DNA from: Rhodospirillaceae bacterium
Lineage (GTDB): Bacteria; Pseudomonadota; Alphaproteobacteria; Rhodospirillales; JABJKH01
Reading direction: 5' to 3'
Length of the DNA stretch: 64,000 nt
Assembly (NCBI GenBank): GCA_018660465.1
Contig: JABJKH010000065.1
Coordinates: 3,728 to 67,727 of the forward strand
The translations under genes and the position numbers were made by a program. Within the stretch, counting starts at the first letter, position 1. Each line of letters opens with the position of its first letter. The notes below the pieces were generated by a model that did no database searches, was not told the DNA's origin, and saw only the letters and a program-made list of their open reading frames with translations. Positions 24,618 through 62,592 of the stretch are shown here, in pieces.

Positions 24618-26510
24618 ATGTGTGGAATTTTCGGGCTCTTCCTGCCGACGTCGGCGTCCCACATGGATGCCGATCTGTCTTCCATGCTGTCAGTCCTAAA
24701 ACATCGGGGGCCGGATGGGGATGAAACTTATGTCAGCGAAGACCGGCGCTATCAGGCGGGCTTTCGTCGGCTCGCAATCATTGACCTAGAAACCGGCGAT
24801 CAACCTATTGTCGAGCAAAACAACGCTCGGGTGTTGATGGGAAACGGGGAGATTTATAACTACCTGGAGCTTCGAAAAGAAGAACCCGGCTACCCCTATC
24901 AAACATCCGGCGACATGGAGGTCATACTTCCCCTTGCAACCCGTCATGGCGATGATTTTATTCAAAAGCTCAATGGCATGTTCGGGCTAGCGCTCTACGA
25001 AAAAGACAGCCACCGCCTGCTTTTGGTTCGTGATCGCCTCGGCATAAAACCGATCTATTGGGCGAAGTTGCCAAATGGCGGTGTATTGTTCGCCTCTGAA
25101 ATCAAGGCTCTGTTTGCGTCGGGATTGCTGGCCCCTGCCATCGACGAAACGGCCATTTCGCCATATCTCGCCCATGGCTACGTCCCGGCACCACAGACTT
25201 TGTTTAAGGGCGTTCAAAAGCTCCCGCCCGGGCATCAACTCAGCGTCGATGCAAAAGGTGATATTTCAGTAAAGCGGTATTGGCGTGCTGAAGCAGCTAC
25301 GGACCTGCCTTCATCAGAAGAGGAAATTGCGGCGTATCTGGAATCTCTCCTCGACGACAGCGTCCGCCTACAACTTCGAAGCGATGTCCCCGTCGGTGCC
25401 CTGCTTTCCGGCGGCCTCGACTCGGGACTGATGGTCGCCCTGGCTGCGGGGCAATCATCGCAGCCTCTCAACACCTATACCGTAAGCTTTGAAGGGGCTG
25501 CGGTTGATGAGGGACCGTTGGCTGCTACCATCGCTGAAAGGTACGAGACCAATCATACGAACCTGTCACTCCCCGCAGGGGATATCTCCCGTCTTCTCCC
25601 CCTTCTCGCCTGGCACATAGAAGAGCCTCTAAACGATGCGGCCCTACTGCCCAATTTTCTGATTGAGAAGGAACTGGGGCAGCATTTAAAAGTTGCCCTG
25701 AATGGAACCGGTGGCGATGAGCTTTTTGCCGGATACGGTAGGTATTTTCAGCTTCCTGTCGAAAAGCGTTTTCTTTCTCTCCCTCGTGGAATTTGTGCAA
25801 TGGCAAAATTTGGTGCTGGGCTGGTTTCGCCCATGACCCGATGGCAATTGGGACGGGCCGAAAAGTTTTTTCAAAACCGCGGCCAATACATTCACGAGCA
25901 TTCGACCCATTTCCCAAAACCGGTGCGCGACCTGATTGGAAACCAAAGCGGAGATACCAACTCTGTACAGTCCCAAGCCTTCCAAGAGTTTTCGGGAGAT
26001 GCTCAGTCTGGAGGGCTGTACGCTGATCTTTGCACCTACTTACCGGACGATTTGCTCACCTTGCTCGACCGGACTTCTATGGCAGTCAGTGTGGAAGGGC
26101 GGGTGCCGTTCTTGGATCATCGGTTTGTAGAGGCATGTCTGGCCGTGCCAGCCCACATACGGACGCCGAATGACCGGCAAAAATCGCTAGAAAGAAATAT
26201 AGCGTCTAAATACCTTCCAGATGAGGTTTTAAGCGCACCAAAGCAAGGCTTCGCATCGCCAGTCCCAGCATGGATAAAGGCGGGTCTAGGCCCCCTGGCA
26301 AAACGCCTCCTCACAAATAAACGCGCACTGGAGCGCGGCTGGTGGACGGCGGACGGCATTGATCGGCTTTTGGCCAAACCCGATCTGCATGGTTTTAGAG
26401 TTTATTCTCTGCTTATGCTTGAACTTGCCGTCACAACGTTTATTGAATCGCCCATGAACAATTCCTATCCACCCACCGCCAGTCTGAATGACCTTGCCGA
26501 AGCCGCCTGA
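24618..26510 (+). CDS. Asparagine synthase (glutamine-hydrolysing)-family amidotransferase, copy 1
   Basis: N-terminal nucleophile MCGIFG, GATase-II core (NGEIYNY) and synthetase PP-loop LLSGGLDSG. Confidence 0.9.
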   Translation: MCGIFGLFLPTSASHMDADLSSMLSVLKHRGPDGDETYVSEDRRYQAGFRRLAIIDLETGDQPIVEQNNARVLMGNGEIYNYLELRKEEPGYPYQTSGDMEVILPLATRHGDDFIQKLNGMFGLALYEKDSHRLLLVRDRLGIKPIYWAKLPNGGVLFASEIKALFASGLLAPAIDETAISPYLAHGYVPAPQTLFKGVQKLPPGHQLSVDAKGDISVKRYWRAEAATDLPSSEEEIAAYLESLLDDSVRLQLRSDVPVGALLSGGLDSGLMVALAAGQSSQPLNTYTVSFEGAAVDEGPLAATIAERYETNHTNLSLPAGDISRLLPLLAWHIEEPLNDAALLPNFLIEKELGQHLKVALNGTGGDELFAGYGRYFQLPVEKRFLSLPRGICAMAKFGAGLVSPMTRWQLGRAEKFFQNRGQYIHEHSTHFPKPVRDLIGNQSGDTNSVQSQAFQEFSGDAQSGGLYADLCTYLPDDLLTLLDRTSMAVSVEGRVPFLDHRFVEACLAVPAHIRTPNDRQKSLERNIASKYLPDEVLSAPKQGFASPVPAWIKAGLGPLAKRLLTNKRALERGWWTADGIDRLLAKPDLHGFRVYSLLMLELAVTTFIESPMNNSYPPTASLNDLAEAA

Positions 26511-27579: not shown

Positions 27580-29465
27580 TGGTCGCCTTTCCCGTTCTTA
27601 TTCTCCAATGTTGTTGTTGTCTCGGCTTTGGCGCGATGGTTCTTCGGCTCCTGAAACTGCAATCCCAATTTCGCCCCTGGGAAGAGGCCATCTTCGCCTT
27701 CGCAATCGGATTTGGCATCCTGGGATGGCTTTTATTTCCCATGGGAATTTCAGGCCTTCTTGGGAAAGGGTGGCTGCTGGTCTTGCTCGCGTCAGGGCTC
27801 CCTGGGTTAGTCTTATTACGACGGCCGGAGCCCTATAAAGGGGGCCTCGATAATGTAGGAAAAGGTCTACTTCTTCTAATTGGTGTTGTGACCGTTTTTG
27901 ACATTGCGGAAGCTTGGGCGCCTCCGACCGATGCCGATTCTCTTGCTTATCATTTCAATGCCATCAAACAGTTTTTGGCCGCCGGAAGAATAGAATTTAT
28001 TCTCCGGCCTCTTGATGGCGCAATTCCCTATCTCATCCAAATGACCTACCTGCCGGTATTGGCACTTGGCGGTGAAATCGCCTTAACGTTTTGGATTCTG
28101 ATTAGCGGAGGTGTTACTGCTGCCTTGTTATTTATTTTGTGCAGGCGCCATCTCAGTCACAACTGGTCGTTGTGTGTCACCCTGATTTTTCTAACCACGC
28201 CTGTTGTGATTTACGCCGCTGGAACCGGACAAGTTGAAATACGTATGGCCATGTTTGTCCTGGTGGCCGCATGGGCAATTGCACAGGCAATTCAAACCGG
28301 GGAGAACCGCTATGCCGTGCTAGCCGGTCTGGCGGTTGGGTTTATATTCGGTGCAAAATATACAGGCCTGTTATTTGCCCTTGCCGCCGGACTGACAATT
28401 TTGCTTCAGCGCAGGTGGCTTTCCCATAGCCTAATTCTCGTCGCGGTATCCATGGTAGCTGGAAGCCAATGGTATCTCTGGAATGCGGTTCATACCGGCG
28501 ATCCTTTTTTCCCAATGTTCTTCCAATGGTTCGGATTTGATGACCTGACGTTATGGACAAAATCCCATGACCTGGATTTTAAAGCGCATTATTTTCCCCA
28601 TGAACTCCCCGCACCGCGAAATTTTGGGTGGTTCGTGCTTTATCCGTTTGCAGCAACTCTTAATCCGTTCCCTAAATTTGAATCTGGGCTGACAGGGTTT
28701 GGGTCTTTCGGACTCATACTATTGCCTTTTGCTATAGGGGGGCTTTGGAAATGGCGACGGCGTCTCCACAACGGCCCTCTACCCGTTTATACCCTGCTTA
28801 CGTTGCTCTTCTATGGTTTTTGGTTTTTTATCGCCTCGTCGCAGCGAATTCGGTTTATCTTGCCCGTCCTTCCCTTGTTTCTAATTTGCTTTACCGTGGC
28901 GGCACAACGGTTCGCGGGGCAGACATCCTACAAAGCCCCGCTTATTGCCGGAGTTTCGGTTGTTATGGCCCTGCAATTAGCAGCGGCGGGCTTGTTTTCG
29001 ATCAAATACCTTCGCTATTCGTTGTCAGGAGAAACCCGTCAGGATTTTGTAGAAAATTACGTTACGAAATTTTCCTCCGTACCCTGGATCAATGCAAATC
29101 TTTCTAAACAGGACAAAATACTAATTTCCGATAGACAACTGCATTACTATTTTAATGTTCCGACATTTTTTGTTGGCAGCTACTCTCAGGCTGTAATTAG
29201 CTACTATGGGAGAGAGCGGTCTCCAAAGATTATGTACGACCAACTCGCCTCACTCGGGATTACCCATCTTCTGCTCAGTACGCCGCTTGGCGCAACAGAC
29301 CAAATTTACCCAAAACCTTTTGGAACACTTCATCGGCAAGATTGTTTTCTAACCCTTAAATCGATCCCTGTGCGTTCAATCAAATCCCGAACACTTTCCG
29401 GTCGGACCTCTCCAAACATTTTGGCTCACATCCTTAAACTTCGACCAAGAAACTGCCTTCAATAA
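27579..29465 (+). CDS. Large polytopic membrane protein, ArnT/PMT-like GT-C-fold glycosyltransferase candidate
   Basis: GTG start overlapping the upstream stop (taGtg). At least 10 hydrophobic helices. Acidic first-loop motif AWAPPTDADSLAYHF. FGAKYTGLLF-type segment. Soluble ~130-aa C-terminal domain. Confidence 0.55.
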   Translation: MVAFPVLILQCCCCLGFGAMVLRLLKLQSQFRPWEEAIFAFAIGFGILGWLLFPMGISGLLGKGWLLVLLASGLPGLVLLRRPEPYKGGLDNVGKGLLLLIGVVTVFDIAEAWAPPTDADSLAYHFNAIKQFLAAGRIEFILRPLDGAIPYLIQMTYLPVLALGGEIALTFWILISGGVTAALLFILCRRHLSHNWSLCVTLIFLTTPVVIYAAGTGQVEIRMAMFVLVAAWAIAQAIQTGENRYAVLAGLAVGFIFGAKYTGLLFALAAGLTILLQRRWLSHSLILVAVSMVAGSQWYLWNAVHTGDPFFPMFFQWFGFDDLTLWTKSHDLDFKAHYFPHELPAPRNFGWFVLYPFAATLNPFPKFESGLTGFGSFGLILLPFAIGGLWKWRRRLHNGPLPVYTLLTLLFYGFWFFIASSQRIRFILPVLPLFLICFTVAAQRFAGQTSYKAPLIAGVSVVMALQLAAAGLFSIKYLRYSLSGETRQDFVENYVTKFSSVPWINANLSKQDKILISDRQLHYYFNVPTFFVGSYSQAVISYYGRERSPKIMYDQLASLGITHLLLSTPLGATDQIYPKPFGTLHRQDCFLTLKSIPVRSIKSRTLSGRTSPNILAHILKLRPRNCLQ

Positions 29466-29527
29466 TTGCACTTTTGTGAATTACCGAATAGAAACTGTTG
29501 AGTTCCCGGAATTAATTAAGCTGAACA

Positions 29528-30244
29528 ATGGCCCTTAAAAGTCTCTCCATCGTCATTCCCTGCTTCAACGAATCTAAAACGCTGAAGGAAATGGTCACAC
29601 GCGTACTCGCCGCCGATAAGTGTGGCTTGGCTCTTGACCTCATTATCGTTGATGATGATTCGACCGATGATTCCTTCGACATTGCAACGTCTCTTGCTGA
29701 ACAGGATGATCGCATTCGCGTCGCAAAACAAAGCCCCAATATGGGAAAGGGAGCGGCGCTGCGAAAGGGTTTCGACATTGCTAATGGGGATGTCATCCTT
29801 ATTCAAGATGCAGACCTTGAGTATGATCCAAATGAATACGCGAAACTGTTAAGGCCCATTCTTAATGATAGTGCTGATATCGTTTACGGCTCACGATTTA
29901 GAGGCGGCGAAACAACCCGTGTCCTCTATTTTTGGCACAGCTTAGGAAACAAAGGCCTTACACTTCTTTCTAATATGTTCACGAACTTGAATCTCACGGA
30001 TATGGAAACGTGTTATAAAGTTTTCCGAACAGATATTCTCCGAAAAATAACATTGAAAGAAAACCGGTTTGGATTTGAGCCCGAAGTAACCGCCAAACTT
30101 TCCCGCCTTAATCCCCAGCCACGTTTTTACGAAGTTGGGATCAGCTACCACGGCAGAACTTATAATGAGGGCAAAAAAATTGGCTGGAAAGATGGCGTTC
30201 AAGCTTTAATTTGTATCCTTCGCTATAATTTATTTTCTAATTAA
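29528..30244 (+). CDS. GT2-family glycosyltransferase, dolichyl/polyprenyl-phosphate sugar synthase-like (soluble)
   Basis: [24 protein letters not shown] and [10 protein letters not shown]. 238 aa with no TM. Closest in layout to Dpm1/Alg5-type enzymes. Confidence 0.85.
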
Positions 30245-30272
30245 TGACGCGGCTTAAAGTATAGATTGTTTA

Positions 30273-31019
30273 ATGGAGAGTATTGAAGCGAATGGCGGGC
30301 GGCAGGCGTATAACACGCAAGACTTGGAAGCTCTTCATGATTTGAAAAATTATCAAAAATGGATTTTAGATTATTTTCGTCCATACCTCCGTGGCTCCGG
30401 GATTGAATTCGGCGCCGGCATGGGGGGAAATTCAGTCAAAATTCTACCATTTTTTGATACACTCGACCTAGTAGAACCGTCGCCAAATTTGATTGAGACC
30501 CTCCATGACCGCTTCGATGACAACAGCGCTGTTTCAATTATAGACGCGACGCTTGAAAACCATATCAGCGCCCTACCGAATGAATTTCGGGACTCCGTCA
30601 TTCTCATCAACGTCTTGGAGCATATTGAAAAGGATGCTGAAACGCTCTGTGATATCTTTCGTATCCTGAAACCAGGCGGTCATCTTTTGTTGTTTGTACC
30701 CGCCTTGCCGCAGCTCTTTAGTGAAATGGATCGCGTCTTATGTCATTTTCGGCGGTATTATCATAAAGGTCTTCGTGAACTTGTAGAAAATGCAGGATTT
30801 ACGATCGTAAAGTCATCGTATTTTGATTTGCTCGGAATTGTTCCCTGGTTTCTAGTAAACACTCTTGGCAGACAGACGACGTTCAACCAAAGCTTAGCAC
30901 AGCTTTACGATAGCATCGGGATTCCGTTTACGCGTACGATGGAGAACTACATCAGCCCTCCAATTGGAAAAAATGTTATTTTGGTCGCCCAGCGCCCTGG
31001 TAATGAAAATGACGTTTGA
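30273..31019 (+). CDS. Class I SAM-dependent methyltransferase
   Basis: Motif I GIEFGAGMGGNS, then INVLEHIEKD and LKPGGHLLLFVP. Confidence 0.8.
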   Translation: MESIEANGGRQAYNTQDLEALHDLKNYQKWILDYFRPYLRGSGIEFGAGMGGNSVKILPFFDTLDLVEPSPNLIETLHDRFDDNSAVSIIDATLENHISALPNEFRDSVILINVLEHIEKDAETLCDIFRILKPGGHLLLFVPALPQLFSEMDRVLCHFRRYYHKGLRELVENAGFTIVKSSYFDLLGIVPWFLVNTLGRQTTFNQSLAQLYDSIGIPFTRTMENYISPPIGKNVILVAQRPGNENDV

Positions 31020-31052
31020 TTATCGAGCCATTATTAATAACTGCCCCTATTC

Positions 31053-32318
31053 ATGAAAAATATCCACAAAGGTCATATTCTTGGCTTCGCTGCTTTTTTC
31101 ATCATACCGCTGGCGATTTTCATGCCCAAATCGCTGGCCCCCTTGTTTGTCGTGACGAGCCTTCTCATTCTCGGTTTTCATGTATCCAAACAAAGGGTCT
31201 TTCCTAAACTCCCGCCGAAGCAATTGGTTTTGTTCTTGGTTGCAAGTATTTGGGCTCTAACAAGTTCGATTTGGTCCATCGCGCCTGACGAAACGCTTTC
31301 GCTTATATTGCCACTAAGTGCTACTTTTTTTGCGGGTCTTGTGATCTCATCAGTCGCGTCGAATTTTAGCGCGACCGAGACTGAGACTTTTTCAAAATTT
31401 TTAGTCGTCGGCTTTTTCATAGGAATTATTATTTTAACGATTGAAATTATTACACCGCTTTTACTGACCCAATATTTACATTCCGTTATTCTTGGAAAAG
31501 GCTTTGATACCACGATCAGAGCCAGAGGTTTTGGTGCGGAGAATTTTTATAAAAACGGGGTCACCATCGCCGCACTTCTGTTTTGGCCTTGTTTAGCTAT
31601 TTTATGGAACCGATTTGGACGTTTTGCCGCCCTAGCTCTAACGCTGGTTTTGACGTTTATTTTTTTTATAAGCGGCAGCCTGTCTGCGTTTGTCGCTCTT
31701 GTTACAGGAGTTGTCGCCGCGTTAGGCTTCTTGGTATTTAAGGGTAAGGCTATCAATATTTATATCATAGCCGTTGTTTTAGCGACCTTCGCCGCTCCCC
31801 TGATCCCACAAGCCCTACCGGATACCCGTGAGCTTTCTAAAATTGCCCCAAGATTTCCAGATTCAGTTTTTCCTCGGATTGTGATCTGGAAATACGCTGC
31901 ATCGATCATCGCCGAGGACCCCATTTCGGGAAAAGGGCTCGATACGGCCCGAGTCGTTTCAAGAAATACGAAAGTGATCAAATTTTTCGGTCAAAACGGT
32001 GGGGGACGAGTCACACCGGGGATTCCTCTTCATCCCCATAATACCATTCTTCAAATCTGGGTGGAGTTAGGTTTGGTCGGCGCGATAATTTTTGGGTTGA
32101 TAATGATAACAATCCTGCGGCAGGTAGGCCGTTTAAAATGCGATGTCTCGATAAGTACGTCCGTTATTGGCATGTTCTTCACGACATTTTTCGTCGCAAA
32201 TGTAAGTTACGGAATTTGGCAAAGCTGGTGGCAAAGCGCCATTTGGTTAAATGTCGCCTTTATAGTTCTCCTGGCCAAGGCAAATAATTCCCAAGGTGAC
32301 AGGATCGTCTCTTCGTAA
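31053..32318 (+). CDS. O-antigen ligase/polymerase-family (Wzy_C domain) membrane protein
   Basis: About 10-12 TM segments. Periplasmic loop with PLHPHNTILQIWVELGLVGAIIFGL, the conserved H...N...E.G..G motif of WaaL/Wzy_C proteins. Confidence 0.8.
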   Translation: MKNIHKGHILGFAAFFIIPLAIFMPKSLAPLFVVTSLLILGFHVSKQRVFPKLPPKQLVLFLVASIWALTSSIWSIAPDETLSLILPLSATFFAGLVISSVASNFSATETETFSKFLVVGFFIGIIILTIEIITPLLLTQYLHSVILGKGFDTTIRARGFGAENFYKNGVTIAALLFWPCLAILWNRFGRFAALALTLVLTFIFFISGSLSAFVALVTGVVAALGFLVFKGKAINIYIIAVVLATFAAPLIPQALPDTRELSKIAPRFPDSVFPRIVIWKYAASIIAEDPISGKGLDTARVVSRNTKVIKFFGQNGGGRVTPGIPLHPHNTILQIWVELGLVGAIIFGLIMITILRQVGRLKCDVSISTSVIGMFFTTFFVANVSYGIWQSWWQSAIWLNVAFIVLLAKANNSQGDRIVSS

Positions 32319-32321
32319 ATC

Positions 32322-33740
32322 TTATTTAATTTTGAGCAAGTAAAGAACTCGTGTTGACCCTTCGCCTGCGGCCTTGCGGATAATTTCAAAGTTTTTCAGG
32401 CACGCGACTTCAAAGGCAGGTTGATCAAACCATTCGTAGAGATTTTCACGGCCGCGACAAATTTTTAGAAACATAGGATCTTCTTTCGCAACGAACTCAA
32501 TGATCAACCATTTTTGACTTAAGCTTGCAGCGAGCGAAAGAATTTCTTCAAGAGGAATTCCTCCAGTTACCATCATATGGTGAATGACGGCGAGCATAAC
32601 GACGATATCGAATTTCTTATTTGCTCGAGAAAGAAAAGATAGTTTCTCATTATTTTTCCAGCCAATTCCGGGAGAAGGCTGGGTAAGGTTTTGGACTAAG
32701 GGTAGAATTTTGGCATCGTTTTCTTGAGCCATGCGCCATACACTGCCAATAACAACAGGGTCTAAGTCCACCGCTACGACGTCCGCACCATTCTTAGCAA
32801 GAATCGCGCTAAAATGGCCTGTATTACACCCGATATCCAGTGCCGTTTTTGGTCCAAATTCAGAAATTGCTGACGTGACAAATGACTCTTTTGAAGTTAG
32901 GCCCTCGGCCGAATATGTATTCTCCTGCATGTAGTTCGACCATTCTGAATTTTTAGTCTTAGGCTGGGATAGGCGATTTAAGTGGCGGCGTAGGCGACGA
33001 TATGTCGCACGCAAAATAAATTTAGCCTTCTCGTCAGACTCCAGTAACCTCGATTTATACACTCCGCCATCTTGGGAGAATTGACCAAACACTTTAGGAA
33101 GCGTTACGAGGCCCAAGTTTGCAGGCGCCAAACGATTTCCCCAACTCAGAATTTCGTAAGCTTCTTCCGGTTCAACGCCATCGGCTCTGTTTAGCAAGAG
33201 CTCTCCCGGCGGCATGCCAGTTCCTTTGTAAAGAAGCAATGGTAACAGGAACATTCGGATAAATTGCCCTTCGGCCCGCCAGATAGGATTTCCTTTCTCC
33301 CGAGGCTCAAACGAAAGGGCATCGACAAAAACTGGCGAAGGGCCATTAAACAGCACGTTGTCGGGTTTCGCGTCTTTTAATTCTGCGTCGTCATTTAAGA
33401 CGGCTTCTGCCAAATCGAGCGTCAGCCTTCCTGCCGCAGCAAGCATTTCTGGTGGCCATTCATGGGGATAAGACACAAACGGGATCACATCGTGATCAAC
33501 TGCCGCCACACCTCTGGAGTTATCAAGTTCGGCTGGTAGGTCGGCCAATTTTATTTGTCGGGTTTTTATTAATTGGTTGTCATCGCGAAAAGGCCCGAGG
33601 CTATCAGATTCAAGAAAAAAATTAAGATTTGCCAATCCGTCAGGTTGGATAATACGGATAAGACGCCCATCGAACTTATAAAGCTGTCCCGCAGGGTCCC
33701 TCAGGGTAAGTTTTTCGGCCATTTTGTTGGAACTGTTCAT
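32322..33740 (-). CDS. Two-domain protein: N-terminal kinase-like domain + C-terminal class I SAM methyltransferase
   Basis: C-terminal motif I ALDIGCNTGHFSAILAKNGADVVAVDLD. The N-terminal ~260 aa contains YPHEWPPEML...LKDAKPDNVLFNGPSPVFVDALSFE, a D-x-K-P-x-N catalytic-loop-like motif followed by a D-containing strand. Confidence 0.75.
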   Translation of the reverse strand: MNSSNKMAEKLTLRDPAGQLYKFDGRLIRIIQPDGLANLNFFLESDSLGPFRDDNQLIKTRQIKLADLPAELDNSRGVAAVDHDVIPFVSYPHEWPPEMLAAAGRLTLDLAEAVLNDDAELKDAKPDNVLFNGPSPVFVDALSFEPREKGNPIWRAEGQFIRMFLLPLLLYKGTGMPPGELLLNRADGVEPEEAYEILSWGNRLAPANLGLVTLPKVFGQFSQDGGVYKSRLLESDEKAKFILRATYRRLRRHLNRLSQPKTKNSEWSNYMQENTYSAEGLTSKESFVTSAISEFGPKTALDIGCNTGHFSAILAKNGADVVAVDLDPVVIGSVWRMAQENDAKILPLVQNLTQPSPGIGWKNNEKLSFLSRANKKFDIVVMLAVIHHMMVTGGIPLEEILSLAASLSQKWLIIEFVAKEDPMFLKICRGRENLYEWFDQPAFEVACLKNFEIIRKAAGEGSTRVLYLLKIK

Positions 33741-33815
33741 ATTGGAAACCTAGCACACAACGGGCATAGTCAGCCGTATCTCATCATTCGCCGAGATATG
33801 TCGGGAAATCTCATG

Positions 33816-34049
33816 CTAGCTCTTATCGTTCGAATTCTCTGTGCCCGACTCACCAGGTTTTCGGCCAAATCCGAACCGATCTTTTAGGCGTTGCCAATAA
33901 ATTTTAAGAGTGAACAACCCGCCTGCGATAGCCGCAATGAGAAGCTGTAGAAACATACTTCCCGAACCTGGATCAATATACGCGTGGGCCGTTGATGGCG
34001 CGATTGCCATGCAAATCACTAATAGTGTAAAACCTGAGCGCTGAGACAT
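33816..34049 (-). CDS. Small membrane protein with YIDPGSGS motif (start ambiguous)
   Basis: MSQRSGFTLLVICMAIAPSTAHAYIDPGSGSMFLQLLIAAIAGGLFTLKIYWQRLKDRF.... Alternative starts at 34124 and 34010 (MAIAPSTAHAYIDPGSGS...). One strong TM followed by a basic tail. Confidence 0.4.
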   Translation of the reverse strand: MSQRSGFTLLVICMAIAPSTAHAYIDPGSGSMFLQLLIAAIAGGLFTLKIYWQRLKDRFGFGRKPGESGTENSNDKS

Positions 34050-34249
34050 TTTAATCAAAAGTTGGGATTTAATTTTACAATTAACCATAGTGGAAACCGT
34101 TCTTCCATCGCGAAGATGCTTCAAGCCTATTCGACAAAGAACATTTACTGGTTGCGCCCCAATATAACAAGCGGCATTTCTGAGGCGCTTATATCCTCCC
34201 AGGTGCTACCTATTCGTGTCCCCTAAATTTCTAACTCCAAGAACTTTCA

Positions 34250-35833
34250 ATGAATAAATTTAACCACAATGTATTGAATATTACAGTCGTCTATTTCGGC
34301 ATAATTTCGCTTGGACTTTCTCAACCCCTCTTTAATGTCGTTGAGCTTTTTCAACGCGAGTTTCAGATCAGTCTCACTGGATTAATTCTGATCGTCATAT
34401 GTTTTCAATACGTTGTGACGGGACTTCTAGTTTTATTTAGGTTGATCCTAGGCAAGTGGGGCGAGAAATTTGATTATGTGGTTTATTTAGGGGCCCTTAT
34501 CAGCCTATTGAGGCAGCTTCAGATAAACTATTTAGAAACGGAATTCCTTTCCCCGTCACAAAAGACTGGCGTGGCAATCGTCTTAATTTTAGGGGCGATT
34601 GTCGCAATTTTATTATTCAAACGGGTAATTGATCAATTTAGTTATTTTCTTGGAATGGTCTCTCCAATCTTAGGCATCTATTTTGTAATTACTATGATGC
34701 CGCACGTCGCAATTGGCGATACACGAACTGTGGATCAAATAAACTCAGCCCCCACACCATCTAACCCACCAATCATTTTCATTGTTTTAGACGAATTAAG
34801 CCTGCCCCTGCTTCTGAACAATGAGGGTGATATAGACAAATCAAAGTATCCAAACTTTTATGCGCTTGCTCACGAAAGCGTCTGGTTTCGACAGGCAATA
34901 TCCAATTATCCAAGTTCTAGCCTCTCCTTTCCAAGCTTCCTTACAGGCAGGCTTAACCTAAACAAAAATGACATGAAGTTTCCCCAAGACGTGGAAACTT
35001 TGCCTCCGACGAGTCTCCCGCGGTTCCTAATTAAAAAGGGATATAATGTATCCATTTTAACCGATTTTTTTGGCTGCAAAGGCAAAGACTTTGAATGTCC
35101 CCGATACCTTTCTGATCAGAATTTTAACTTTATTTGGCGTATATTTTCAAAGTTTGTTCAGGAGTTTGGGCCAGATTATTTAGTCGATCGATATCTTCCA
35201 TTTTTACATGGTGGGCTTTTGAATTTCCAATATGAATCCGTGCTGCACGTGGCAAAAACGGCCAAGTCAGATACGTTTTATCTTGTCCATTTATTGACGA
35301 CCCACGCACCATATGTTTTTGCGGAAACGGGAGACTACCTTTATTCACCTGATCTAAAAATGGGCACTGGCGCAAATTATTCCAATACTCTTTTAAATTA
35401 TAAAAAGCAGGTGACGTACCAAGACAAACAACTTGGAAAGTTGATAGAATCATTTAAAAAATCTGGTCTCTATGAAAAAGCAGTCATTGCCATAATTGCA
35501 GATCATGGAAACTGTTGGACAGCTAAGTGTCCTGGACGCGTGTACCCAAGCCAAATTAGAACCATTGAACCCAGTCTCCCCAAAATTCCGGTATTTATTC
35601 GGGCACCGGGACTTAAGCCCAGAGTTGATGATGGTGATTTTCAACTTATCGATATCATGCCAACAATTATTGATGCTGCGGGCTTCTCTGCAGGCGAGCT
35701 GACAGGTATAGACGGAAGGTCCGCGCTTCTTGGCATAGAGACAACTCGACCGAGGAATTTTATTTTACAGTCATCTGGGGAAAGTGTTGACGTTGGTTTA
35801 CCGGTTCGCCGTATTATTGTAAAATCTGAGTAA
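34250..35833 (+). CDS. Sulfatase-fold (alkaline-phosphatase superfamily) membrane protein, LtaS/EptA/OpgB-like
   Basis: Five N-terminal TM helices, then PPIIFIVLDELS (metal ligand), YPSSSLSFPSFLTG (nucleophile region), HLLTTHAPY and IIADHGN. This is the architecture of phospho-substituent transferases. Confidence 0.7.
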   Translation: MNKFNHNVLNITVVYFGIISLGLSQPLFNVVELFQREFQISLTGLILIVICFQYVVTGLLVLFRLILGKWGEKFDYVVYLGALISLLRQLQINYLETEFLSPSQKTGVAIVLILGAIVAILLFKRVIDQFSYFLGMVSPILGIYFVITMMPHVAIGDTRTVDQINSAPTPSNPPIIFIVLDELSLPLLLNNEGDIDKSKYPNFYALAHESVWFRQAISNYPSSSLSFPSFLTGRLNLNKNDMKFPQDVETLPPTSLPRFLIKKGYNVSILTDFFGCKGKDFECPRYLSDQNFNFIWRIFSKFVQEFGPDYLVDRYLPFLHGGLLNFQYESVLHVAKTAKSDTFYLVHLLTTHAPYVFAETGDYLYSPDLKMGTGANYSNTLLNYKKQVTYQDKQLGKLIESFKKSGLYEKAVIAIIADHGNCWTAKCPGRVYPSQIRTIEPSLPKIPVFIRAPGLKPRVDDGDFQLIDIMPTIIDAAGFSAGELTGIDGRSALLGIETTRPRNFILQSSGESVDVGLPVRRIIVKSE

Positions 35834-35927
35834 TTCGCCGTGAAGACAGGCATTTTTCTATTTTACCCCGAATATGATAAGTTTTACGTCCTTCGGTTTT
35901 TAAGGTCTTTCCGAATTTCATGCCCCT

Positions 35928-37394
35928 ATGACGATATTATCTAAAATTATCCCCATCATCCTCTCTGGCGGATCAGGTACGCGGCTTTGGCCGCAATCGC
36001 GGAACTCGTTTCCAAAGCAGCTGCTACCGTTTGTGTCGGATCATAGCTTGCTGCAGGAAACTGCGTTGCGATTAACCGAAGACCAGATTTTTGCGCGCCC
36101 TGTTGTGGTTTGTAATCTCGAGCATCGGTTCCTTATTTTAGATCAATTGCGTGAGGTTTCTGTAGAACCTGCCGATGTCATCGTTGAACCCACCGGGCGC
36201 AATACGGCCCCTGCCGCTGCCGTTGCCGCACTTTGTGCTGTTGAAACGGATCCTGAAGCGATCCTTTTCTTATTGCCCTCAGATCACGCAATCCAAAACC
36301 AAGCCGCGTTTTTGAATGTCGTTAACTTGGCCGCAGCATCTGCCAAAGCCGGGCATTTGGTCACCTTTGGAATTGAGCCGCACGCTCCTGAAACGGGCTA
36401 CGGGTATATCAACAAGGGTGCGCCCTTGAACGGACTAACAGGATGCTGTGCGGTTGAGAGCTTTGTCGAAAAACCAGACGTGAAAACGGCCGAGGGTTAT
36501 CTTGAAACAGGATCTTATCTTTGGAACAGTGGCATGTTTGTCTTCAGGGCGGGCGTCTATCTGGAAGAACTGGAACGTCTGAATCCCGCAATCCTTACGT
36601 CCTGTCGAAAGGCACTGGCGGCCGGCGGCACGGATGAAAATTTTCAATTTTTAGATAAGAACGCATTTTCTGAAAGCCCGTCGCTCTCCATCGATTATGC
36701 CGTCATGGAGCACACCGATAAAGCAGCCGTGGTCCCTGCCGACATGGGATGGAGTGATGTTGGCACATGGAAATCCCTTTGGCAGGCGACTGAAAAAGAT
36801 ACGGATGGCAACGTGCTAAAAGGCGATGTTCTATCGATCAATTCTAAAAACTCTTATATTTCCAGCCAAGACCAATTGGTTGCCGTGGTCGACCTGGAAG
36901 ACATTGCCGTGATTGAGACCGAAGACGCTGTCTTGGTCATGCCATTGGACAAATCGCAAGACGTACGTGACGTCGTGAAGCGTCTGAAGTCCGATGGACG
37001 CGAAGACTACCTGACCCACCCCAGGGTCTACCGCCCTTGGGGCAATTACAAGACCATGGACAAAGACGAGGGGTTTCAGGTTAAGCGCCTGACGGTAAAT
37101 CCTGGCCAACGCCTCAGTCTTCAAAAACACCAGCACCGCACCGAACATTGGACTGTGGTCGATGGCATCGCACGAATTACGATAGGAACCAGCATCTCAG
37201 ACGTTATGGAAAACAATACGGTTCTAATTCCAGCTGGCACGGTTCACCGTCTGGAGAACATAACATCCGACCCCTTGGTTGTGATCGAGGTCCAATACGG
37301 CAGCTATCTGGGCGAAGACGATATAGAACGCTTGGAAGATGATTATGGCCAAGCCATGAAGATTCCCCCCGAGTCCGATCCCGGAATCAGCTAG
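35928..37394 (+). CDS. manC: Mannose-1-phosphate guanylyltransferase / mannose-6-phosphate isomerase (type II PMI)
   Basis: IIPIILSGGSGTRLWPQSRNSFPKQLL and the C-terminal cupin RPWGNYKTMDKDEGFQVKRLTVNPGQRLSLQKHQHRTEHW. Confidence 0.9.
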   Translation: MTILSKIIPIILSGGSGTRLWPQSRNSFPKQLLPFVSDHSLLQETALRLTEDQIFARPVVVCNLEHRFLILDQLREVSVEPADVIVEPTGRNTAPAAAVAALCAVETDPEAILFLLPSDHAIQNQAAFLNVVNLAAASAKAGHLVTFGIEPHAPETGYGYINKGAPLNGLTGCCAVESFVEKPDVKTAEGYLETGSYLWNSGMFVFRAGVYLEELERLNPAILTSCRKALAAGGTDENFQFLDKNAFSESPSLSIDYAVMEHTDKAAVVPADMGWSDVGTWKSLWQATEKDTDGNVLKGDVLSINSKNSYISSQDQLVAVVDLEDIAVIETEDAVLVMPLDKSQDVRDVVKRLKSDGREDYLTHPRVYRPWGNYKTMDKDEGFQVKRLTVNPGQRLSLQKHQHRTEHWTVVDGIARITIGTSISDVMENNTVLIPAGTVHRLENITSDPLVVIEVQYGSYLGEDDIERLEDDYGQAMKIPPESDPGIS

Positions 37395-37426: not shown

Positions 37427-39298
37427 ATGTGCGGTATAGCCGGCAGCACGACTGCCACCAGCGATGTTCTCCAGACGATGGGCGCGCGGTTGCGCCACCG
37501 GGGACCCGACAGCGATGGCACCTGGCAAGCACCTGGCGGGATTTTGGGACTGGCCCATACCCGGCTCAAGGTTATTGATCTTAGCGACGGCGGCCATCAA
37601 CCGATGGTCTCTGACGACAGACGGTTCGCGCTGGTCTTCAACGGCGAAATCTACAATTACAAAGCCTTACGACGTGACCTTGAATCAAAGGGTGAGTCGT
37701 TTAGATCGGACAGTGATACCGAAGTGCTGTTCGTGCTGTTGCGTCGGGAGGGGAAAAAGGCTTTGGCCCGGCTCGTCGGTATGTTTTCTTTTGCATTCTG
37801 GAACGGAGAATCGGGTGAGCTGTTACTGGCCCGCGACCGACTTGGCATCAAGCCGTTGGTCTATGCGCCTCTCGCCAATCGACAAATCGCCTTTGCCTCC
37901 GAAATCGAAGCACTTCGCGCGCATCCTGGGATTGATCTCAATATTGACCGCCAAGCGGTATCAGAATTTCTCGCCTGTCTTTATGTTCCCCAACCGCTCT
38001 GTATTCATAAGGGCATCCGTAAACTGCCGCCCGGTCATACACTGACGTGGCGCGCTGGAACCACAACCATCGAGCCCTATTGGCAGCCTGCATTTAAGGG
38101 AACCCGGCAGCCCACCCTGGATGAAGCTGTCGAGGAAATCTTGCCCTTGGTACGCCAATCCGTGATCGACCGGCTGGTAGCCGACGTTCCGGTCGGATGC
38201 TTTTTATCCGGCGGAATTGATAGCTCTGTCATTGCAGCCTTGATGGCAGAAGAATCGAAAGCTCAAGGTGGGCCTGCGATCAAGACCTTCACCATGACCT
38301 TCGATGAAGCCACCTATGATGAGCGTGCCGCCGCCAAGCAGGTCGCCGACCACATCGGCAGCGACCATACGGAACTGCCCGCGAGTTCAGATCTCGCCTC
38401 GCGCCTAAACAAAACTCTGAAGGCATTTGGTGAACCCTTTGGAAATCCGACATCATTGCTGATAGACGATCTTTCCAGGAAGGCCCGCGAACATGTGACG
38501 GTCGCATTGGTCGGTGATGGCGGGGACGAAGTCTTCGCCGGGTATCCCCGCTACAAGGGCGGCCTGTGGGCACAAAAATATCGGCACCTACCGGGATGGC
38601 TTCGACGCGGCGTTGTTGCCCCAATAGCAGGCCTCATTCCGGAAAGCACCGAGGGCCGTCATGGACTTAGGCGGGCACGGGAGTTTTTAACTTCGGCCAG
38701 CCTTCCTGATGCGAATATGTACGCCGCCTGGGTCGAATATTTTTCGCCGGAAGAACGCGCTCAGATGTTACCAGAGGATACGGCACCGAAAAGTCCCATC
38801 GCCGAGCTTTACCAAAAATCGCCCTCAGACCACCCGCTTGATGCCATGCAGCAAACCGATCTGCAATCGTTCCTGCCAAGTAATTTATTGGCCTACGGTG
38901 ATGCCATGAGCATGCGGCATAGTTTGGAACTACGGCTGCCGCTGATTGACCATCGCTTGGTCGATGCCGTCGGAACCTTAGCTCCGGGGCTTAGGGTTCA
39001 AGATGGCATGAAGACACTGCTACGCGCCGTGGCCCAGAAGTTATTGCCCACACATATCGTCGATGCACCAAAGCGGGGATTTAATCCGCCCATGGGGGTT
39101 TGGCTGAAAAACGATTTAGCCAGCATGGTGAAAGACCGGCTGACCCCTGAACGAATGGCGGATGTCGGCCTCGCATGGGAGCCAATCGACCAGCTGCTGA
39201 GCGAACATCACGGCAGCCGTCGCGATCATTCGCTCAAAGTCTGGGCGTTGTTGGTTCTTGATACGTGGCGGGATTCTAGGCGAGGGTCGATAAACTAA
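37427..39298 (+). CDS. Asparagine synthase (glutamine-hydrolysing)-family amidotransferase, copy 2
   Basis: MCGIAG nucleophile, NGEIYNYKALR and PP-loop FLSGGIDSS. Only distantly similar to copy 1. Confidence 0.9.
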   Translation: MCGIAGSTTATSDVLQTMGARLRHRGPDSDGTWQAPGGILGLAHTRLKVIDLSDGGHQPMVSDDRRFALVFNGEIYNYKALRRDLESKGESFRSDSDTEVLFVLLRREGKKALARLVGMFSFAFWNGESGELLLARDRLGIKPLVYAPLANRQIAFASEIEALRAHPGIDLNIDRQAVSEFLACLYVPQPLCIHKGIRKLPPGHTLTWRAGTTTIEPYWQPAFKGTRQPTLDEAVEEILPLVRQSVIDRLVADVPVGCFLSGGIDSSVIAALMAEESKAQGGPAIKTFTMTFDEATYDERAAAKQVADHIGSDHTELPASSDLASRLNKTLKAFGEPFGNPTSLLIDDLSRKAREHVTVALVGDGGDEVFAGYPRYKGGLWAQKYRHLPGWLRRGVVAPIAGLIPESTEGRHGLRRAREFLTSASLPDANMYAAWVEYFSPEERAQMLPEDTAPKSPIAELYQKSPSDHPLDAMQQTDLQSFLPSNLLAYGDAMSMRHSLELRLPLIDHRLVDAVGTLAPGLRVQDGMKTLLRAVAQKLLPTHIVDAPKRGFNPPMGVWLKNDLASMVKDRLTPERMADVGLAWEPIDQLLSEHHGSRRDHSLKVWALLVLDTWRDSRRGSIN

Positions 39299-60064: not shown

Positions 60065-60077
60065 AATTTAAATTCTC

Positions 60078-60710
<633 letters not shown>

Positions 60711-61976: not shown

Positions 61977-61981
61977 GATAA

Positions 61982-62362
61982 TCAAGGGTCTCGACTGAGA
62001 CCTCTTACCTTCAATTCAACTAAATAATTTTCCCAAATTTCATCTTGGCGGTCACCAAAGTTATAAAGCGTATCCCAAGAATAAATGCCGGTGTCGTGCA
62101 GGTCGTCGAACTTAATTCGAACCGCATAGTTTCCGACCGCTTCCACACCCATGATCCCCACATGACGTCGGCCGCTTACAACCGTTTTGTCACCAGGGCC
62201 GTGGCCTTGGACTTCCGCCGACGGGCTTTCAACGCGCAGTAATTCAGCCGGCAGTTTAAATTGCTTGCCGTCATCAAAATCGACCTCCAACACTTTTTCA
62301 TCTTTTTTCAAGCGAATTTCGGTGGGTCGATAAGCTGGTTCATATTTGCTCGTCATATTCAT
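61982..62362 (-). CDS. DUF971 (gamma-butyrobetaine-hydroxylase N-terminal-like) protein
   Basis: LEVDFDDGKQFKLPAELLRVESPSAE...GNYAVRIKFDDLHDTGIYSWDTLY, the characteristic DUF971 pattern. Confidence 0.75.
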   Translation of the reverse strand: MNMTSKYEPAYRPTEIRLKKDEKVLEVDFDDGKQFKLPAELLRVESPSAEVQGHGPGDKTVVSGRRHVGIMGVEAVGNYAVRIKFDDLHDTGIYSWDTLYNFGDRQDEIWENYLVELKVRGLSRDP

Positions 62363-62557
62363 CTACGCACCCGCACCGTCGTCAAGCGACCGCGCTTCAT
62401 CAATAAGCATGATCGGAATGCCGTCTCTAATCGGATACGCCAAACTGGCTTGGTCGCTGATCAGTTCCTGCGCCGCCGCATCATAACGCAACGGGCCTTT
62501 GCTGAGAGGGCAGACCAATATTTCCAAAAGTTTCGGATCTACTTTTCGCTCGGGCAT
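62363..62557 (-). CDS. Trm112/YcaR-family small protein
   Basis: [58 protein letters not shown] at 62557. The longer track ORF (to 62728) overlaps the LON-domain gene. Confidence 0.8.
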
Positions 62558-62592
62558 CGCACTCTTTCTCCAAGGATCTTGTTGCGGGTTCG

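What the first reader, a model, noticed from the sequence alone, without database searches (positions are those of the whole stretch)
32322..33740. Kinase-like domain fused to a SAM methyltransferase: a possible WbdD-style chain-capping enzyme in reversed domain order
- The C-terminal 200 aa is a clear class I methyltransferase (LDIGCNTGHF...VVAVDLD).
- The N-terminal ~260 aa contains LKDAKPDNVLF followed 11 residues later by FVDALSFE. This resembles a protein-kinase-like catalytic loop (D-x-K-P-x-N) followed by a metal-binding Asp strand, and YPHEWPPEML lies upstream.
- E. coli O9a WbdD is an established bifunctional methyltransferase-kinase. It caps polymannose O-antigen with methyl-phosphate and sets chain length.
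- This protein has the same two chemistries in the opposite order, in a locus with manC. It is encoded on the opposite strand, convergent with the O-antigen-ligase-family gene.
- A phospho-methyl terminator, or a phosphorylated and methylated side group, is a testable idea.
Basis: inference. Interest (0 to 1): 0.55.

Follow-up and report, generated by a model that had tools for sequence, protein, structure and literature searches.

The report
NoeA-type kinase–methyltransferase membrane cassette
The gene really encodes a protein-kinase-like domain fused to a methyltransferase that carries the residues WbdD needs to methylate a phosphate. It belongs to the already described but biochemically unsolved NoeA/Lani_1194 family and lacks what defines a WbdD-style chain-length terminator.

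Summary
ORF 32322-33740 (-) encodes a 472-aa two-domain protein. Residues ~8-262 fold as a protein-kinase-like domain: alone, all of its top 50 PDB matches are kinases. D123, N128 and D140 are invariant in 40 homologues. Residues ~275-472 are a class I SAM methyltransferase whose closest solved relative by sequence is WbdD's. The family keeps WbdD's phosphate-methylation residues (H132/H133/R203 = H387/H388/R464).

The WbdD-terminator reading is only partly supported. There is no coiled-coil ruler, and no Wzm/Wzt or WbdA in the window. The domain order is reversed.

The gene is the core of a conserved three-gene cassette. The partners are an upstream 77-aa signal-anchored peptide (Y-x-D-P-G-x-G, TM helix, basic tail) and a membrane alkaline-phosphatase-fold enzyme. 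The peptide is fused to the enzyme in one homologue. About two thirds of the cassettes stand alone; the rest sit in Wzx/Wzy/Wza/Wzc-type glycan operons.

The same triad is the S. meliloti orf-noeA-noeB unit, and the Lani_1194 family was described bioinformatically in 2022. So this is a new member of a known kind whose function is still unsolved. Most likely it is a membrane-tethered kinase plus phosphate O-methyltransferase that decorates a membrane-bound glycoconjugate.

The parts
32322..33740 (-). Kinase-like / SAM-methyltransferase fusion gene (472 aa), NoeA/Lani_1194 family
   Evidence: The ORF was found. The full-length AF2 model has pLDDT 90.2 and pTM 0.90. More than 1,400 full-length homologues were found. 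S. meliloti NoeA matches the family HMM at E = 2.5e-89, and tblastn gives 97% coverage at E ~1e-42.
32955..33719 (-). Protein-kinase-like domain (residues ~8-262)
   Evidence: All top 50 Foldseek PDB hits for the N-domain model are protein kinases, at probability 1.00. There is no Pfam or NCBIfam model for it. Three of 28 members give a weak APH match.
33357..33377 (-). Catalytic loop K122-D123-A-K-P126-D-N128
   Evidence: Translation verified. D123, P126 and N128 are invariant in 40 homologues. hhalign places D123 and N128 on WbdD D351 and N356.
33321..33323 (-). D140, the DFG-equivalent metal-binding Asp (FVDALSFE)
   Evidence: Invariant. Aligned to WbdD D369. Kept in NoeA.
32325..32918 (-). 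Class I SAM-dependent methyltransferase domain (residues ~275-472)
   Evidence: Pfam Methyltransf_23. The best solved relative by sequence is the WbdD methyltransferase. hhalign probability 95.8%.
32577..32582 (-). H387-H388, equivalents of WbdD H132/H133 (phosphate-binding, essential for phosphate methylation)
   Evidence: MAFFT mapping, with both positions conserved in at least 95% of the family. The role in WbdD comes from PMC3482155.
32349..32351 (-). R464, equivalent of WbdD R203 (R-x-x-Y at the start of the last beta-strand)
   Evidence: MAFFT maps R203 to R464 and Y206 to Y467, both invariant. Both are kept in NoeA.
33816..34049 (-). Small anchor-peptide gene. It is 77 aa from the ATG at 34049; the mechanical ORF from a TTG at 34124 is 102 aa. 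Layout: signal peptide ...STAHA | YIDPGSGS, one TM helix, basic tail.
   Evidence: The same ORF type lies directly upstream of the homologue in 55 of 74 loci. Y-x-D-P-G-x-G-x4-Q is invariant. At least 6,836 clusters exist, all 'hypothetical'. It is fused to the kinase/MTase in P0185. It is followed by the kinase/MTase with a 4-nt overlap in L087-L090. It is present between nodL and noeA in S. meliloti.
34250..35833 (+). Membrane-anchored alkaline-phosphatase/sulfatase-fold gene (527 aa, about 4 TM helices plus catalytic domain), the NoeB-like partner. In the window it is divergent from the anchor gene.
   Evidence: Pfam Sulfatase, E = 7.5e-23. It is the only window ORF matching the HMM of the conserved downstream partner, E = 2.4e-18. 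The partner lies within 2.5 kb in 57 of 77 loci. Ser/Thr occupies the place of the C/S-x-P-x-R formylglycine motif (alignment, sequence reading). TM segments.

Best explanation
The gene encodes a member of the NoeA/Lani_1194 family.

Shown:
- It is a cytoplasmic two-domain enzyme. An N-terminal protein-kinase-like domain carries catalytic Asp123, Mg-binding Asn128 and Asp140, and an invariant Arg29. The 2022 description of the family assigns such an Arg the role of the usual ATP-binding Lys.
- This domain is rigidly packed against a C-terminal class I SAM methyltransferase.
- The methyltransferase is a homologue of the WbdD methyltransferase. It keeps the His-His-Arg set that lets WbdD methylate a phosphate.

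Inferred:
- The enzyme is held at the inner face of the cytoplasmic membrane by the product of the small upstream gene. That product is a signal-anchored peptide whose mature N-terminus, Y-I-D-P-G-S-G, faces outwards and whose basic tail faces the cytoplasm.
- It works with a polytopic alkaline-phosphatase-fold enzyme (NoeB-like) whose catalytic domain faces outwards.
- The most likely chemistry is WbdD's two steps. ATP-dependent phosphorylation of a hydroxyl on a membrane-bound glycoconjugate, probably a lipid-linked glycan or glycolipid, is followed by SAM-dependent O-methylation of that phosphate, giving a methyl phosphodiester.
- In this window the cassette has been placed inside a Wzy-type surface-polysaccharide cluster. 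There it would decorate repeat units or a glycolipid rather than act as a ruler-controlled chain terminator.
- The outward-facing partner then acts on the modified product or on the same polymer.

Confidence by step: family membership and domain identities about 0.9; phospho-methyl chemistry about 0.45; glycoconjugate substrate about 0.4.
For: - Fold and catalytic residues.
- Homology of the methyltransferase to WbdD.
- Conservation of the WbdD phosphate-methylation residues (H132/H133/R203 = H387/H388/R464).
- The other close methyltransferase relatives are TehB-type. From my own knowledge, these methylate an oxyanion.
- Anchor peptide: conserved upstream in 55 of 74 loci, sharply defined motif, natural fusion in P0185, and a 4-nt overlap with the kinase/MTase gene.
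- AlkP-fold partner: within 2.5 kb in 57 of 77 loci, and the window gene matches its HMM. It has no formylglycine motif.
- Glycan link: in about a third of loci the cassette continues into GT2/GT4, Wza, Wzc, Wzx, Wzy_C and Bac_transf genes. In the window it lies between Wzy_C, GT2 genes and manC.
- Family identity: NoeA matches at E = 2.5e-89 with the same gene triad. The published description of Lani_1194/NoeA agrees: Arg for the beta3 Lys, no ion-pair Glu, D/N/D kept, and neighbours Lani_1193 and the AlkP-fold Lani_1195/NoeB.
Against: - No biochemical activity is known for any family member. [quoted passage not shown]
- A nodL mutant polar on noeA/noeB changed only Nod-factor O-acetylation. 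So no phospho-methyl product has been seen where it was looked for.
- The His-His pair also occurs in non-phosphate methyltransferases such as NodS or RebM. The phosphate inference therefore rests mainly on R464 and on overall similarity.
- I could not inspect model coordinates to confirm that R464 faces the SAM methyl group.
- Sequence similarity of the kinase domain to the WbdD kinase is not significant (hhalign E = 0.3).
- Most cassettes are stand-alone and not next to glycan genes, so a lipid or other envelope substrate is equally possible.
- The role of the AlkP-fold partner is wholly inferred.
Confidence: 0.5

Rival explanations
1. It is a true WbdD-style terminator. It caps the non-reducing end of a growing lipid-linked polysaccharide with methyl phosphate, which stops polymerisation, sets modal chain length and licenses export.
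For: It has the same two chemistries, and the methyltransferase is homologous to WbdD's with the phosphate-binding residues kept. The locus contains manC and many glycosyltransferases.
Against: - There is no coiled-coil ruler and no C-terminal membrane or polymerase-recruiting region. These are found in all characterised terminators.
- No Wzm, Wzt or WbdA homologue is in the window, and no Wzm in 80 related loci.
- The associated glycan operons are Wzx/Wzy-type.
- Most family members lie outside glycan loci.
- The conserved partners are an anchor peptide and an AlkP-fold enzyme, not a polymerase or transporter.
Confidence: 0.07
2. The two domains act on different atoms. The kinase phosphorylates one position of a substrate, and the methyltransferase O- or N-methylates a non-phosphate group. 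This would resemble WbdD of serotype O8 methylating a sugar hydroxyl, or phosphoethanolamine N-methyltransferases acting on a phospho-base.
For: The methyltransferase gives generic class I hits, including weak ones to phosphoethanolamine N-methyltransferases. The published remote-homology table for Lani_1194 also lists a phosphoethanolamine N-methyltransferase. His-His occurs in non-phosphate methyltransferases.
Against: WbdD is the best solved relative by sequence, and the Arg203 equivalent is invariant here. [quoted passage not shown] The rigid two-domain packing (pTM 0.90) and the strict fusion (94% in PMC9758233) suggest sequential action on one site.
Confidence: 0.2
3. The cassette is a lipid or head-group pathway. 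The kinase/methyltransferase makes or recycles a membrane lipid or phospho-alcohol donor at the inner leaflet. The outward-facing AlkP-fold enzyme, like EptA, LtaS or OpgB, then uses it to decorate envelope components.
For: - The enzyme is membrane-tethered.
- The partner resembles LtaS, EptA and YejM-type membrane AlkP-fold enzymes.
- Most cassettes are stand-alone, as expected for a general envelope function.
- A DAG-kinase-type gene follows the cassette in L083.
- The family occurs in both diderm and monoderm lineages.
Against: No known lipid kinase or lipid methyltransferase family matches either domain. From my own knowledge, known AlkP-fold transferases use ordinary phospholipids and need no dedicated donor synthesis. 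About a third of loci are operonic with glycan genes.
Confidence: 0.15
4. The N-terminal domain is a protein or peptide kinase, or a catalytically dead scaffold, that regulates or merely positions the methyltransferase. Its target might be the anchor peptide or the AlkP-fold partner.
For: The nearest structures are eukaryotic-type protein kinases. No ion-pair Glu and no canonical Lys are present.
Against: D123, N128 and D140 are invariant across phyla, which argues against a pseudokinase. Only five residues separate D140 from E145, so there is no activation segment (sequence reading); WbdD, a sugar kinase, likewise has a much shorter activation loop. The cytoplasmic tail of the anchor peptide is conserved only in charge.
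Confidence: 0.06

Closest known systems
NoeA (Sinorhizobium meliloti pSymA, nodL-noeA-noeB operon) and the Lani_1194 kinase-methyltransferase family (Sci Rep 2022, PMC9758233)
   Same: - Same architecture from end to end: kinase-like domain, then class I methyltransferase, about 470-480 aa.
- NoeA matches the window family's HMM at E = 2.5e-89 and keeps R29, D123, N128, D140, H387/H388 and R464/Y467.
- Same gene triad: a ~70-aa ORF with the Y-x-D-P-G-x-G motif, then the enzyme, then an AlkP-fold membrane protein (NoeB/Lani_1195).
   Different: - Only about 28% identity to NoeA, so this is a distant branch. The closest relatives, at 55-72%, are uncultured Proteobacteria.
- In the window the AlkP-fold gene is divergent rather than downstream.
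- The cassette sits in a surface-polysaccharide cluster, not a nod operon.
- No family member has a known biochemical function.
WbdD of E. coli O9a / Klebsiella O3 (bifunctional methyltransferase-kinase chain terminator; PDB 4AZS)
   Same: It has a class I methyltransferase homologous to this one, with the phosphate-specific His-His-Arg set. It has a eukaryotic-type kinase domain with a D-x4-N loop and a DFG-type Asp. It is membrane-associated.
   Different: - The order is reversed (methyltransferase then kinase in WbdD).
- WbdD has a ~250-aa coiled-coil ruler, a trimerisation helix and a WbdA-recruiting C-terminus, none of which are present here.
- WbdD sits in manC-manB-wzm-wzt-wbdD-wbdA; no such transporter or polymerase is present here.
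- Kinase-domain sequence similarity is not significant.
- Membrane attachment here is by a separate anchor peptide.
Lcin_0519 family and Klebsiella O7 ORF6 (other methyltransferase-kinase pairs with a coiled coil, linked to Wzm/Wzt)
   Same: They combine kinase and methyltransferase chemistries on envelope glycans. O7 ORF6 is shown to add methyl phosphate. Lcin_0519 is predicted to modify LPS.
   Different: They carry coiled coils and sit next to ABC transporters. Their kinase domains are of different types: O7 ORF6's closest structural match is AmiN, and Lcin_0519 lacks helix alpha-C. I did not compare them directly because I held no sequences for them.
EptA / LtaS / YejM-type membrane alkaline-phosphatase-fold enzymes (for the partner gene 34250-35833)
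   Same: An N-terminal bundle of TM helices plus an outward-facing AlkP/sulfatase-fold domain with a Ser/Thr nucleophile position. The published remote-homology table gives EptA and YejM for Lani_1195.
   Different: The sequence is very divergent, with the best PDB E-values only 1e-10 to 1e-5 and mostly over the C-terminal half. The substrate is unknown.

Membership tests
NoeA / Lani_1194 kinase-methyltransferase family | Full-length similarity to NoeA: kinase-like N-domain plus class I methyltransferase, about 470 aa | tested here: met
   tblastn against pSymA noeA gives 97% coverage, 28% identity, E ~1e-42. NoeA against the family HMM gives E = 2.5e-89.
NoeA / Lani_1194 kinase-methyltransferase family | Atypical kinase site: Arg in place of PKA K72, no identifiable ion-pair Glu, and the D166/N171/D184 equivalents kept | tested here: met
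   R29, D123, N128 and D140 are invariant, and no conserved alpha-C acidic residue is present. The same residues are found in NoeA. The assignment of R29 as the K72 equivalent is by analogy only; I could not inspect coordinates.
NoeA / Lani_1194 kinase-methyltransferase family | Conserved neighbours: a small hypothetical protein (Lani_1193) and an AlkP-fold membrane protein (Lani_1195/NoeB) | tested here: met
   The window has the anchor ORF at 33816-34049 and the AlkP-fold gene at 34250-35833. Across loci the figures are 55 of 74 and 57 of 77. The S. meliloti triad is. The published frequencies are 65% and 38%.
WbdD-type polysaccharide chain terminators | Methyltransferase domain homologous to WbdD's, with the phosphate-binding H132/H133/R203 | tested here: met
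   hhalign probability 95.8%. H387/H388/R464 are aligned and invariant.
WbdD-type polysaccharide chain terminators | Eukaryotic-type kinase domain specifically related to the WbdD kinase | tested here: inconclusive
WbdD-type polysaccharide chain terminators | Domain order methyltransferase then kinase, followed by a long C-terminal coiled-coil ruler and a membrane or polymerase-binding region | tested here: not met
   The order here is kinase then methyltransferase. The protein ends at residue 472 in the last beta-strand of the methyltransferase, and its longest helix is about 22 residues.
WbdD-type polysaccharide chain terminators | Genomic partnership with a Wzm/Wzt (CBM) ABC transporter and a processive polymerase such as WbdA | tested here: not met
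   phmmer with E. coli O9 Wzm, Wzt and WbdA finds nothing in the window and no Wzm in 80 loci. Pfam scans of the window's main ORFs show no ABC-transporter family.
WbdD-type polysaccharide chain terminators | Phosphorylation then phosphate methylation of the terminal sugar; control of modal chain length | not testable with these tools
   This needs enzyme assays and mutant analysis.
Protein-kinase-like superfamily | Bilobal kinase fold with a catalytic loop D-x4-N and a downstream metal-binding Asp | tested here: met
   Foldseek probability 1.00 to hundreds of kinases. D123-x4-N128 and D140 are invariant.
Protein-kinase-like superfamily | Match to a curated kinase sequence model (Pkinase, APH, etc.) | tested here: not met
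   No Pfam or NCBIfam hit for residues 1-270. Only 3 of 28 members touch APH, best E = 0.0096. A profile search against PDB sequences finds nothing.
Class I SAM-dependent methyltransferases | Rossmann-like fold with the G-x-G-x-G SAM motif and the acidic residue at the end of beta2 | tested here: met
   Methyltransf_23/11/12/25 score above their cutoffs. LDIGCNTG and D325 are aligned to WbdD D82. The Foldseek hits are ChlM, WbdD, TehB and UbiG.
True sulfatases (for partner gene 34250-35833) | C/S-x-P-x-R formylglycine motif | tested here: not met
   The aligned segment reads S-S-S-L-S-F-P-S-F-L-T-G-R against C-G-P-S-R-A-S-I-L-T-G-Q in the best PDB hit. Partner-family members have G-x-T-x-x-S-[LV]-P there (sequence reading).

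The most novel reading that the evidence does not exclude
The methyl phosphate made by NoeA-type enzymes is not an end cap but an activated phosphodiester. After the modified lipid-linked molecule is flipped outwards, the NoeB-like alkaline-phosphatase-fold partner attacks it with its Ser/Thr nucleophile and methanol leaves. The partner then transfers the phosphoryl-linked glycan or glycolipid onto an acceptor. This would be an ATP-independent way of making phosphodiester bridges outside the cytoplasm. The invariant outward-facing Y-x-D-P-G-x-G stub of the anchor peptide would couple the two enzymes across the membrane.
Probability: 0.08. Interest if true: 0.8.

Novelty: new member of a known kind. 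Interest (0 to 1): 0.45.

Why it matters
The biochemical roles of noeA and noeB, host-range nodulation genes known since 1995, were still described as unknown in 2022. Their homologues turn out to be very widespread. I found more than 4,000 clusters at 50% identity, spread across Acidobacteriota, Verrucomicrobiota, Proteobacteria and some Firmicutes, and the family is also reported in Legionella.

The family keeps the exact residues that make WbdD a phosphate methyltransferase. It is also tethered to the membrane by a dedicated, sharply conserved peptide. Together these turn an open question into a concrete assay: ATP plus SAM, then look for a methyl phosphodiester on envelope glycoconjugates.

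For this window, it means the polysaccharide made by the locus may carry a phospho-methyl or related decoration. It also means the gene should not be annotated as a chain-length regulator.

Tried and rejected
- Foldseek with the full-length model returned only methyltransferase hits. I therefore remodelled the N-terminal 272 residues alone.
- Sequence-profile searches of the N-domain against PDB sequences found nothing.
- A database search with a WbdD fragment returned only fragments, and a Klebsiella wbdD copy was frameshifted. I obtained intact WbdD from an E. coli O9 genome instead.
- hhalign of the N-domain profile against the single WbdD sequence was not significant.
- The promoter and terminator scan of 32100-34400 gave nothing above shuffled expectation.
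- Literature searches for 'phosphate methyltransferase' with WbdD, and for kinase-like/methyltransferase/sulfatase neighbourhoods, found nothing. The family paper surfaced only through a later search.
- I considered and rejected a true sulfatase role for the partner, because it has no formylglycine motif.
- I considered and rejected a sorting-signal or RiPP-precursor role for the small peptide, because it is fused N-terminally to the enzyme in P0185.
- The Acidobacteriota preprint that mentions noeA/noeB only lists them as search terms.
Full report
**Observation.** All quoted peptide strings are present at residues 91, 121, 138, 301 and 321. Pfam recognises only the C-terminal half, as a class I methyltransferase (Methyltransf_23, E = 4e-11, residues 286-419). 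Residues 1-270 match no Pfam or NCBIfam model.

**Is the N-terminal domain kinase-like?** A database search returned more than 1,400 relatives, and those listed cover the full length of the protein. In an alignment of 40 of them at 44-72% identity, K122, D123, P126, N128, D140, S143 and E145 are invariant, as are R29, H83, E94 and W95. The D-x4-N spacing, with an Asp 12 residues further on, is that of a kinase catalytic loop and DFG Asp.

- AlphaFold2 on this alignment gave a confident model (pLDDT 90.2, pTM 0.90). Its PDB matches were all methyltransferases, so I modelled residues 1-272 alone (pLDDT 89.1, pTM 0.88).
- All of that model's top 50 Foldseek hits are protein kinases (CK2alpha, Src, TNIK, MSK1, ROCK1 and others; probability 1.00; 572 hits at E <= 0.001).
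- Sequence-only methods barely see the relationship. Three of 28 members touch Pfam APH, and a profile search against PDB sequences finds nothing.

**The methyltransferase and WbdD.** By sequence, the best solved relative of the C-terminal domain is WbdD itself (phmmer E ~1e-6; hhalign probability 95.8%, E = 7e-9 over the whole domain). I recovered intact WbdD from an E. coli O9 genome, in its manC-manB-wzm-wzt-wbdD-wbdA context.

- The WbdD structure paper shows that H132, H133 and R203 are essential for methylating the phosphate, and that they have no equivalent in the O8 enzyme or other known sugar methyltransferases (PMC3482155).
- A MAFFT alignment maps D82, H132, H133, R203 and Y206 onto D325, H387, H388, R464 and Y467. 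All are conserved in at least 95% of the family.
The caveat is that a His-His pair also occurs in NodS or RebM, and I could not inspect coordinates.
- For the kinase half, hhalign against WbdD is not significant (E = 0.3). Its only alignment puts D123/N128/D140 on WbdD D351/N356/D369.

**Why it is not a WbdD-type terminator.** Characterised terminators carry a coiled-coil molecular ruler and act with a Wzm/Wzt transporter whose carbohydrate-binding module reads the cap (PMC11231755; PMC3482155).

- Here the protein stops right after the methyltransferase fold.
- Pfam scans of the window's main ORFs show a large surface-polysaccharide cluster from about 0.4 to 44.5 kb. It holds GT2, GT4 and GT-C-like proteins, Wzy_C, a WecA-like transferase, ManC, epimerases, two AsnB-like amidotransferases and radical SAM enzymes, but no ABC transporter.
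- phmmer with E. coli O9 Wzm, Wzt and WbdA finds nothing in the window and no Wzm in 80 related loci.

**The conserved cassette.** I fetched 80 loci from species genomes; at least 559 carry a relative (Acidobacteriota, Verrucomicrobiota, Proteobacteria, Pelotomaculum and others). Clustering their ORFs shows only two widely conserved neighbours.

*AlkP-fold partner.* A ~540-aa protein with N-terminal TM helices and a sulfatase/alkaline-phosphatase-fold domain lies immediately downstream and co-directional in 54 loci.
- By HMM it lies within 2.5 kb in 57 of 77 loci. The window's 34250-35833 gene is the only window ORF matching that HMM (E = 2.4e-18).
- It has Ser/Thr where sulfatases have the formylglycine motif.

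*Anchor peptide.* A small ORF lies directly upstream in 55 of 74 loci.
- It has an A-x-A signal-peptide end, then an invariant Y-x-D-P-G-x-G, a TM helix with an invariant Gln, and a basic tail. In the window it is 33816-34049.
- The peptide family has at least 6,836 clusters, all annotated 'hypothetical'.
- Starting from three such peptides, the next genes were always the ~480-aa enzyme (4-nt overlap) and then the AlkP-fold gene.
- In P0185 the peptide is fused to the N-terminus of the enzyme. That argues it is a membrane anchor with N-out, C-in topology.

**Context across loci.** About two thirds of cassettes are stand-alone, next to unrelated genes. The rest continue into GT2/GT4, Wza, Wzc, Wzx, Wzy_C, DegT and Bac_transf genes, which make up Wzy-dependent pathways.

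In the closest relatives, the pair lies next to a thioredoxin-TPR / GBBH-like / FAD-monooxygenase / P-II / AmtB block. That block is present in the window at 58.7-64 kb. Here, by contrast, the cassette lies in a low-GC stretch (28-36 kb) of the glycan cluster.

**What is already known.** A 2022 survey (PMC9758233) describes the Lani_1194 family.

- It is a kinase-like domain followed by a class I methyltransferase.
- Arg replaces the catalytic Lys, no ion-pair Glu can be identified, and D/N/D are kept.
- 94% of about 2,000 homologues keep the fusion.
- Its conserved neighbours are Lani_1193 (a ~65-aa hypothetical protein, in 65% of neighbourhoods) and Lani_1195 (AlkP fold, 38%).
- S. meliloti NoeA and NoeB are named as homologues, and the domain layout is compared with WbdD.

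I tested membership directly.

- The window protein aligns with pSymA noeA over 97% of its length (E ~1e-42).
- NoeA matches the family HMM at E = 2.5e-89 and keeps R29, D123, N128, D140, H387/H388 and R464/Y467.
- The 71-aa ORF between nodL and noeA carries Y-L-D-P-G-T-G and matches the anchor HMM (E = 1.5e-12).
- NoeB is a membrane AlkP-like protein.

The biochemical roles of noeA and noeB are still stated to be unknown, and a nodL mutant polar on them changed only Nod-factor O-acetylation.

**Interpretation.** The gene is a new, distant member of the NoeA/Lani_1194 family. It most likely acts as a membrane-tethered kinase plus phosphate O-methyltransferase on a membrane-bound glycoconjugate, together with an outward-facing AlkP-fold enzyme.

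- Shown: the domain identities and the family membership.
- Inferred: the phospho-methyl chemistry, from homology and conserved residues.
- Not known: the substrate and the partner's role.

As far as I could see, what goes beyond the published description is fourfold:
- conservation of the WbdD phosphate-methylation residues;
- definition of the anchor-peptide motif and its natural fusion;
- the operonic link to Wzy-type rather than ABC-type glycan pathways;
- the explicit failure of the terminator membership tests.

**Scores.** Novelty: new member of a known kind. Interest: 0.45. The family is published and common, but its function is a 30-year-old open question that these features make directly testable.

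Noticed in passing
window 28000-36000: A low-GC stretch (0.41-0.47, against 0.50-0.56 on either side) holds a GT2 gene, a 248-aa methyltransferase, the Wzy_C gene, the cassette and the AlkP-fold gene. This looks like the variable, possibly horizontally acquired part of the polysaccharide cluster.
   Followed up: partly
window 58760-63983, compared with L001, L002 and L081: A housekeeping block (AmtB, P-II, FAD monooxygenase, GBBH-like, thioredoxin-TPR) lies directly beside the anchor and kinase/MTase pair in the closest relatives. In the window it is about 25 kb away from the cassette. Either the cassette was relocated, or a second copy lies just beyond coordinate 64000.
   Followed up: partly
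window 2582-4147 (-) and 6465-8015 (+): Two B12-binding radical SAM genes sit inside the polysaccharide cluster, next to a YfhO-like GT-C protein (4342-6417). This is unusual chemistry for a glycan locus.
   Followed up: no
window 24618-26510 and 37427-39298: Two paralogous asparagine-synthase-like amidotransferases best match the XrtA/PEP-CTERM-system amidotransferase model, though below its cutoff. No exosortase gene turned up among the window ORFs I scanned.
   Followed up: no
window 11236-12870 (+): A 544-aa ORF in the middle of the glycan cluster has no Pfam hit and no predicted TM helix.
   Followed up: no
window 32318-32322: The stop codons of the Wzy_C gene and the kinase/MTase gene are only 3 nt apart and convergent, which leaves no room for a terminator. 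The scan found nothing convincing.
   Followed up: partly
L083 11686-14291: In one acidobacterial genome the AlkP-fold partner is split by an insertion sequence (DDE_3 transposase) while the kinase/MTase gene stays intact. A DAG-kinase-type gene and a metallophosphatase follow.
   Followed up: no
P0185 (572 aa): This is a natural fusion of the anchor peptide (…DRAEA|YVDPGLG, TM helix, KRKR), a ~45-aa linker, the kinase domain and the methyltransferase.
   Followed up: yes
L091 4745-4960 (S. meliloti pSymA, between nodL and noeA): The annotated 71-aa 'hypothetical protein' carries the anchor motif (…VPAHA|YLDPGTGSMLVQ) and overlaps the noeA start. The nod box n5 operon therefore appears to contain a fourth conserved gene, which the papers I read do not name.
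   Followed up: yes
L061 11534-12169: A 211-aa protein downstream of the kinase/MTase carries the Y-x-D-P-G-x-G anchor motif at its N-terminus followed by an extra ~140-aa domain. The anchor may therefore be a reusable module.
   Followed up: no
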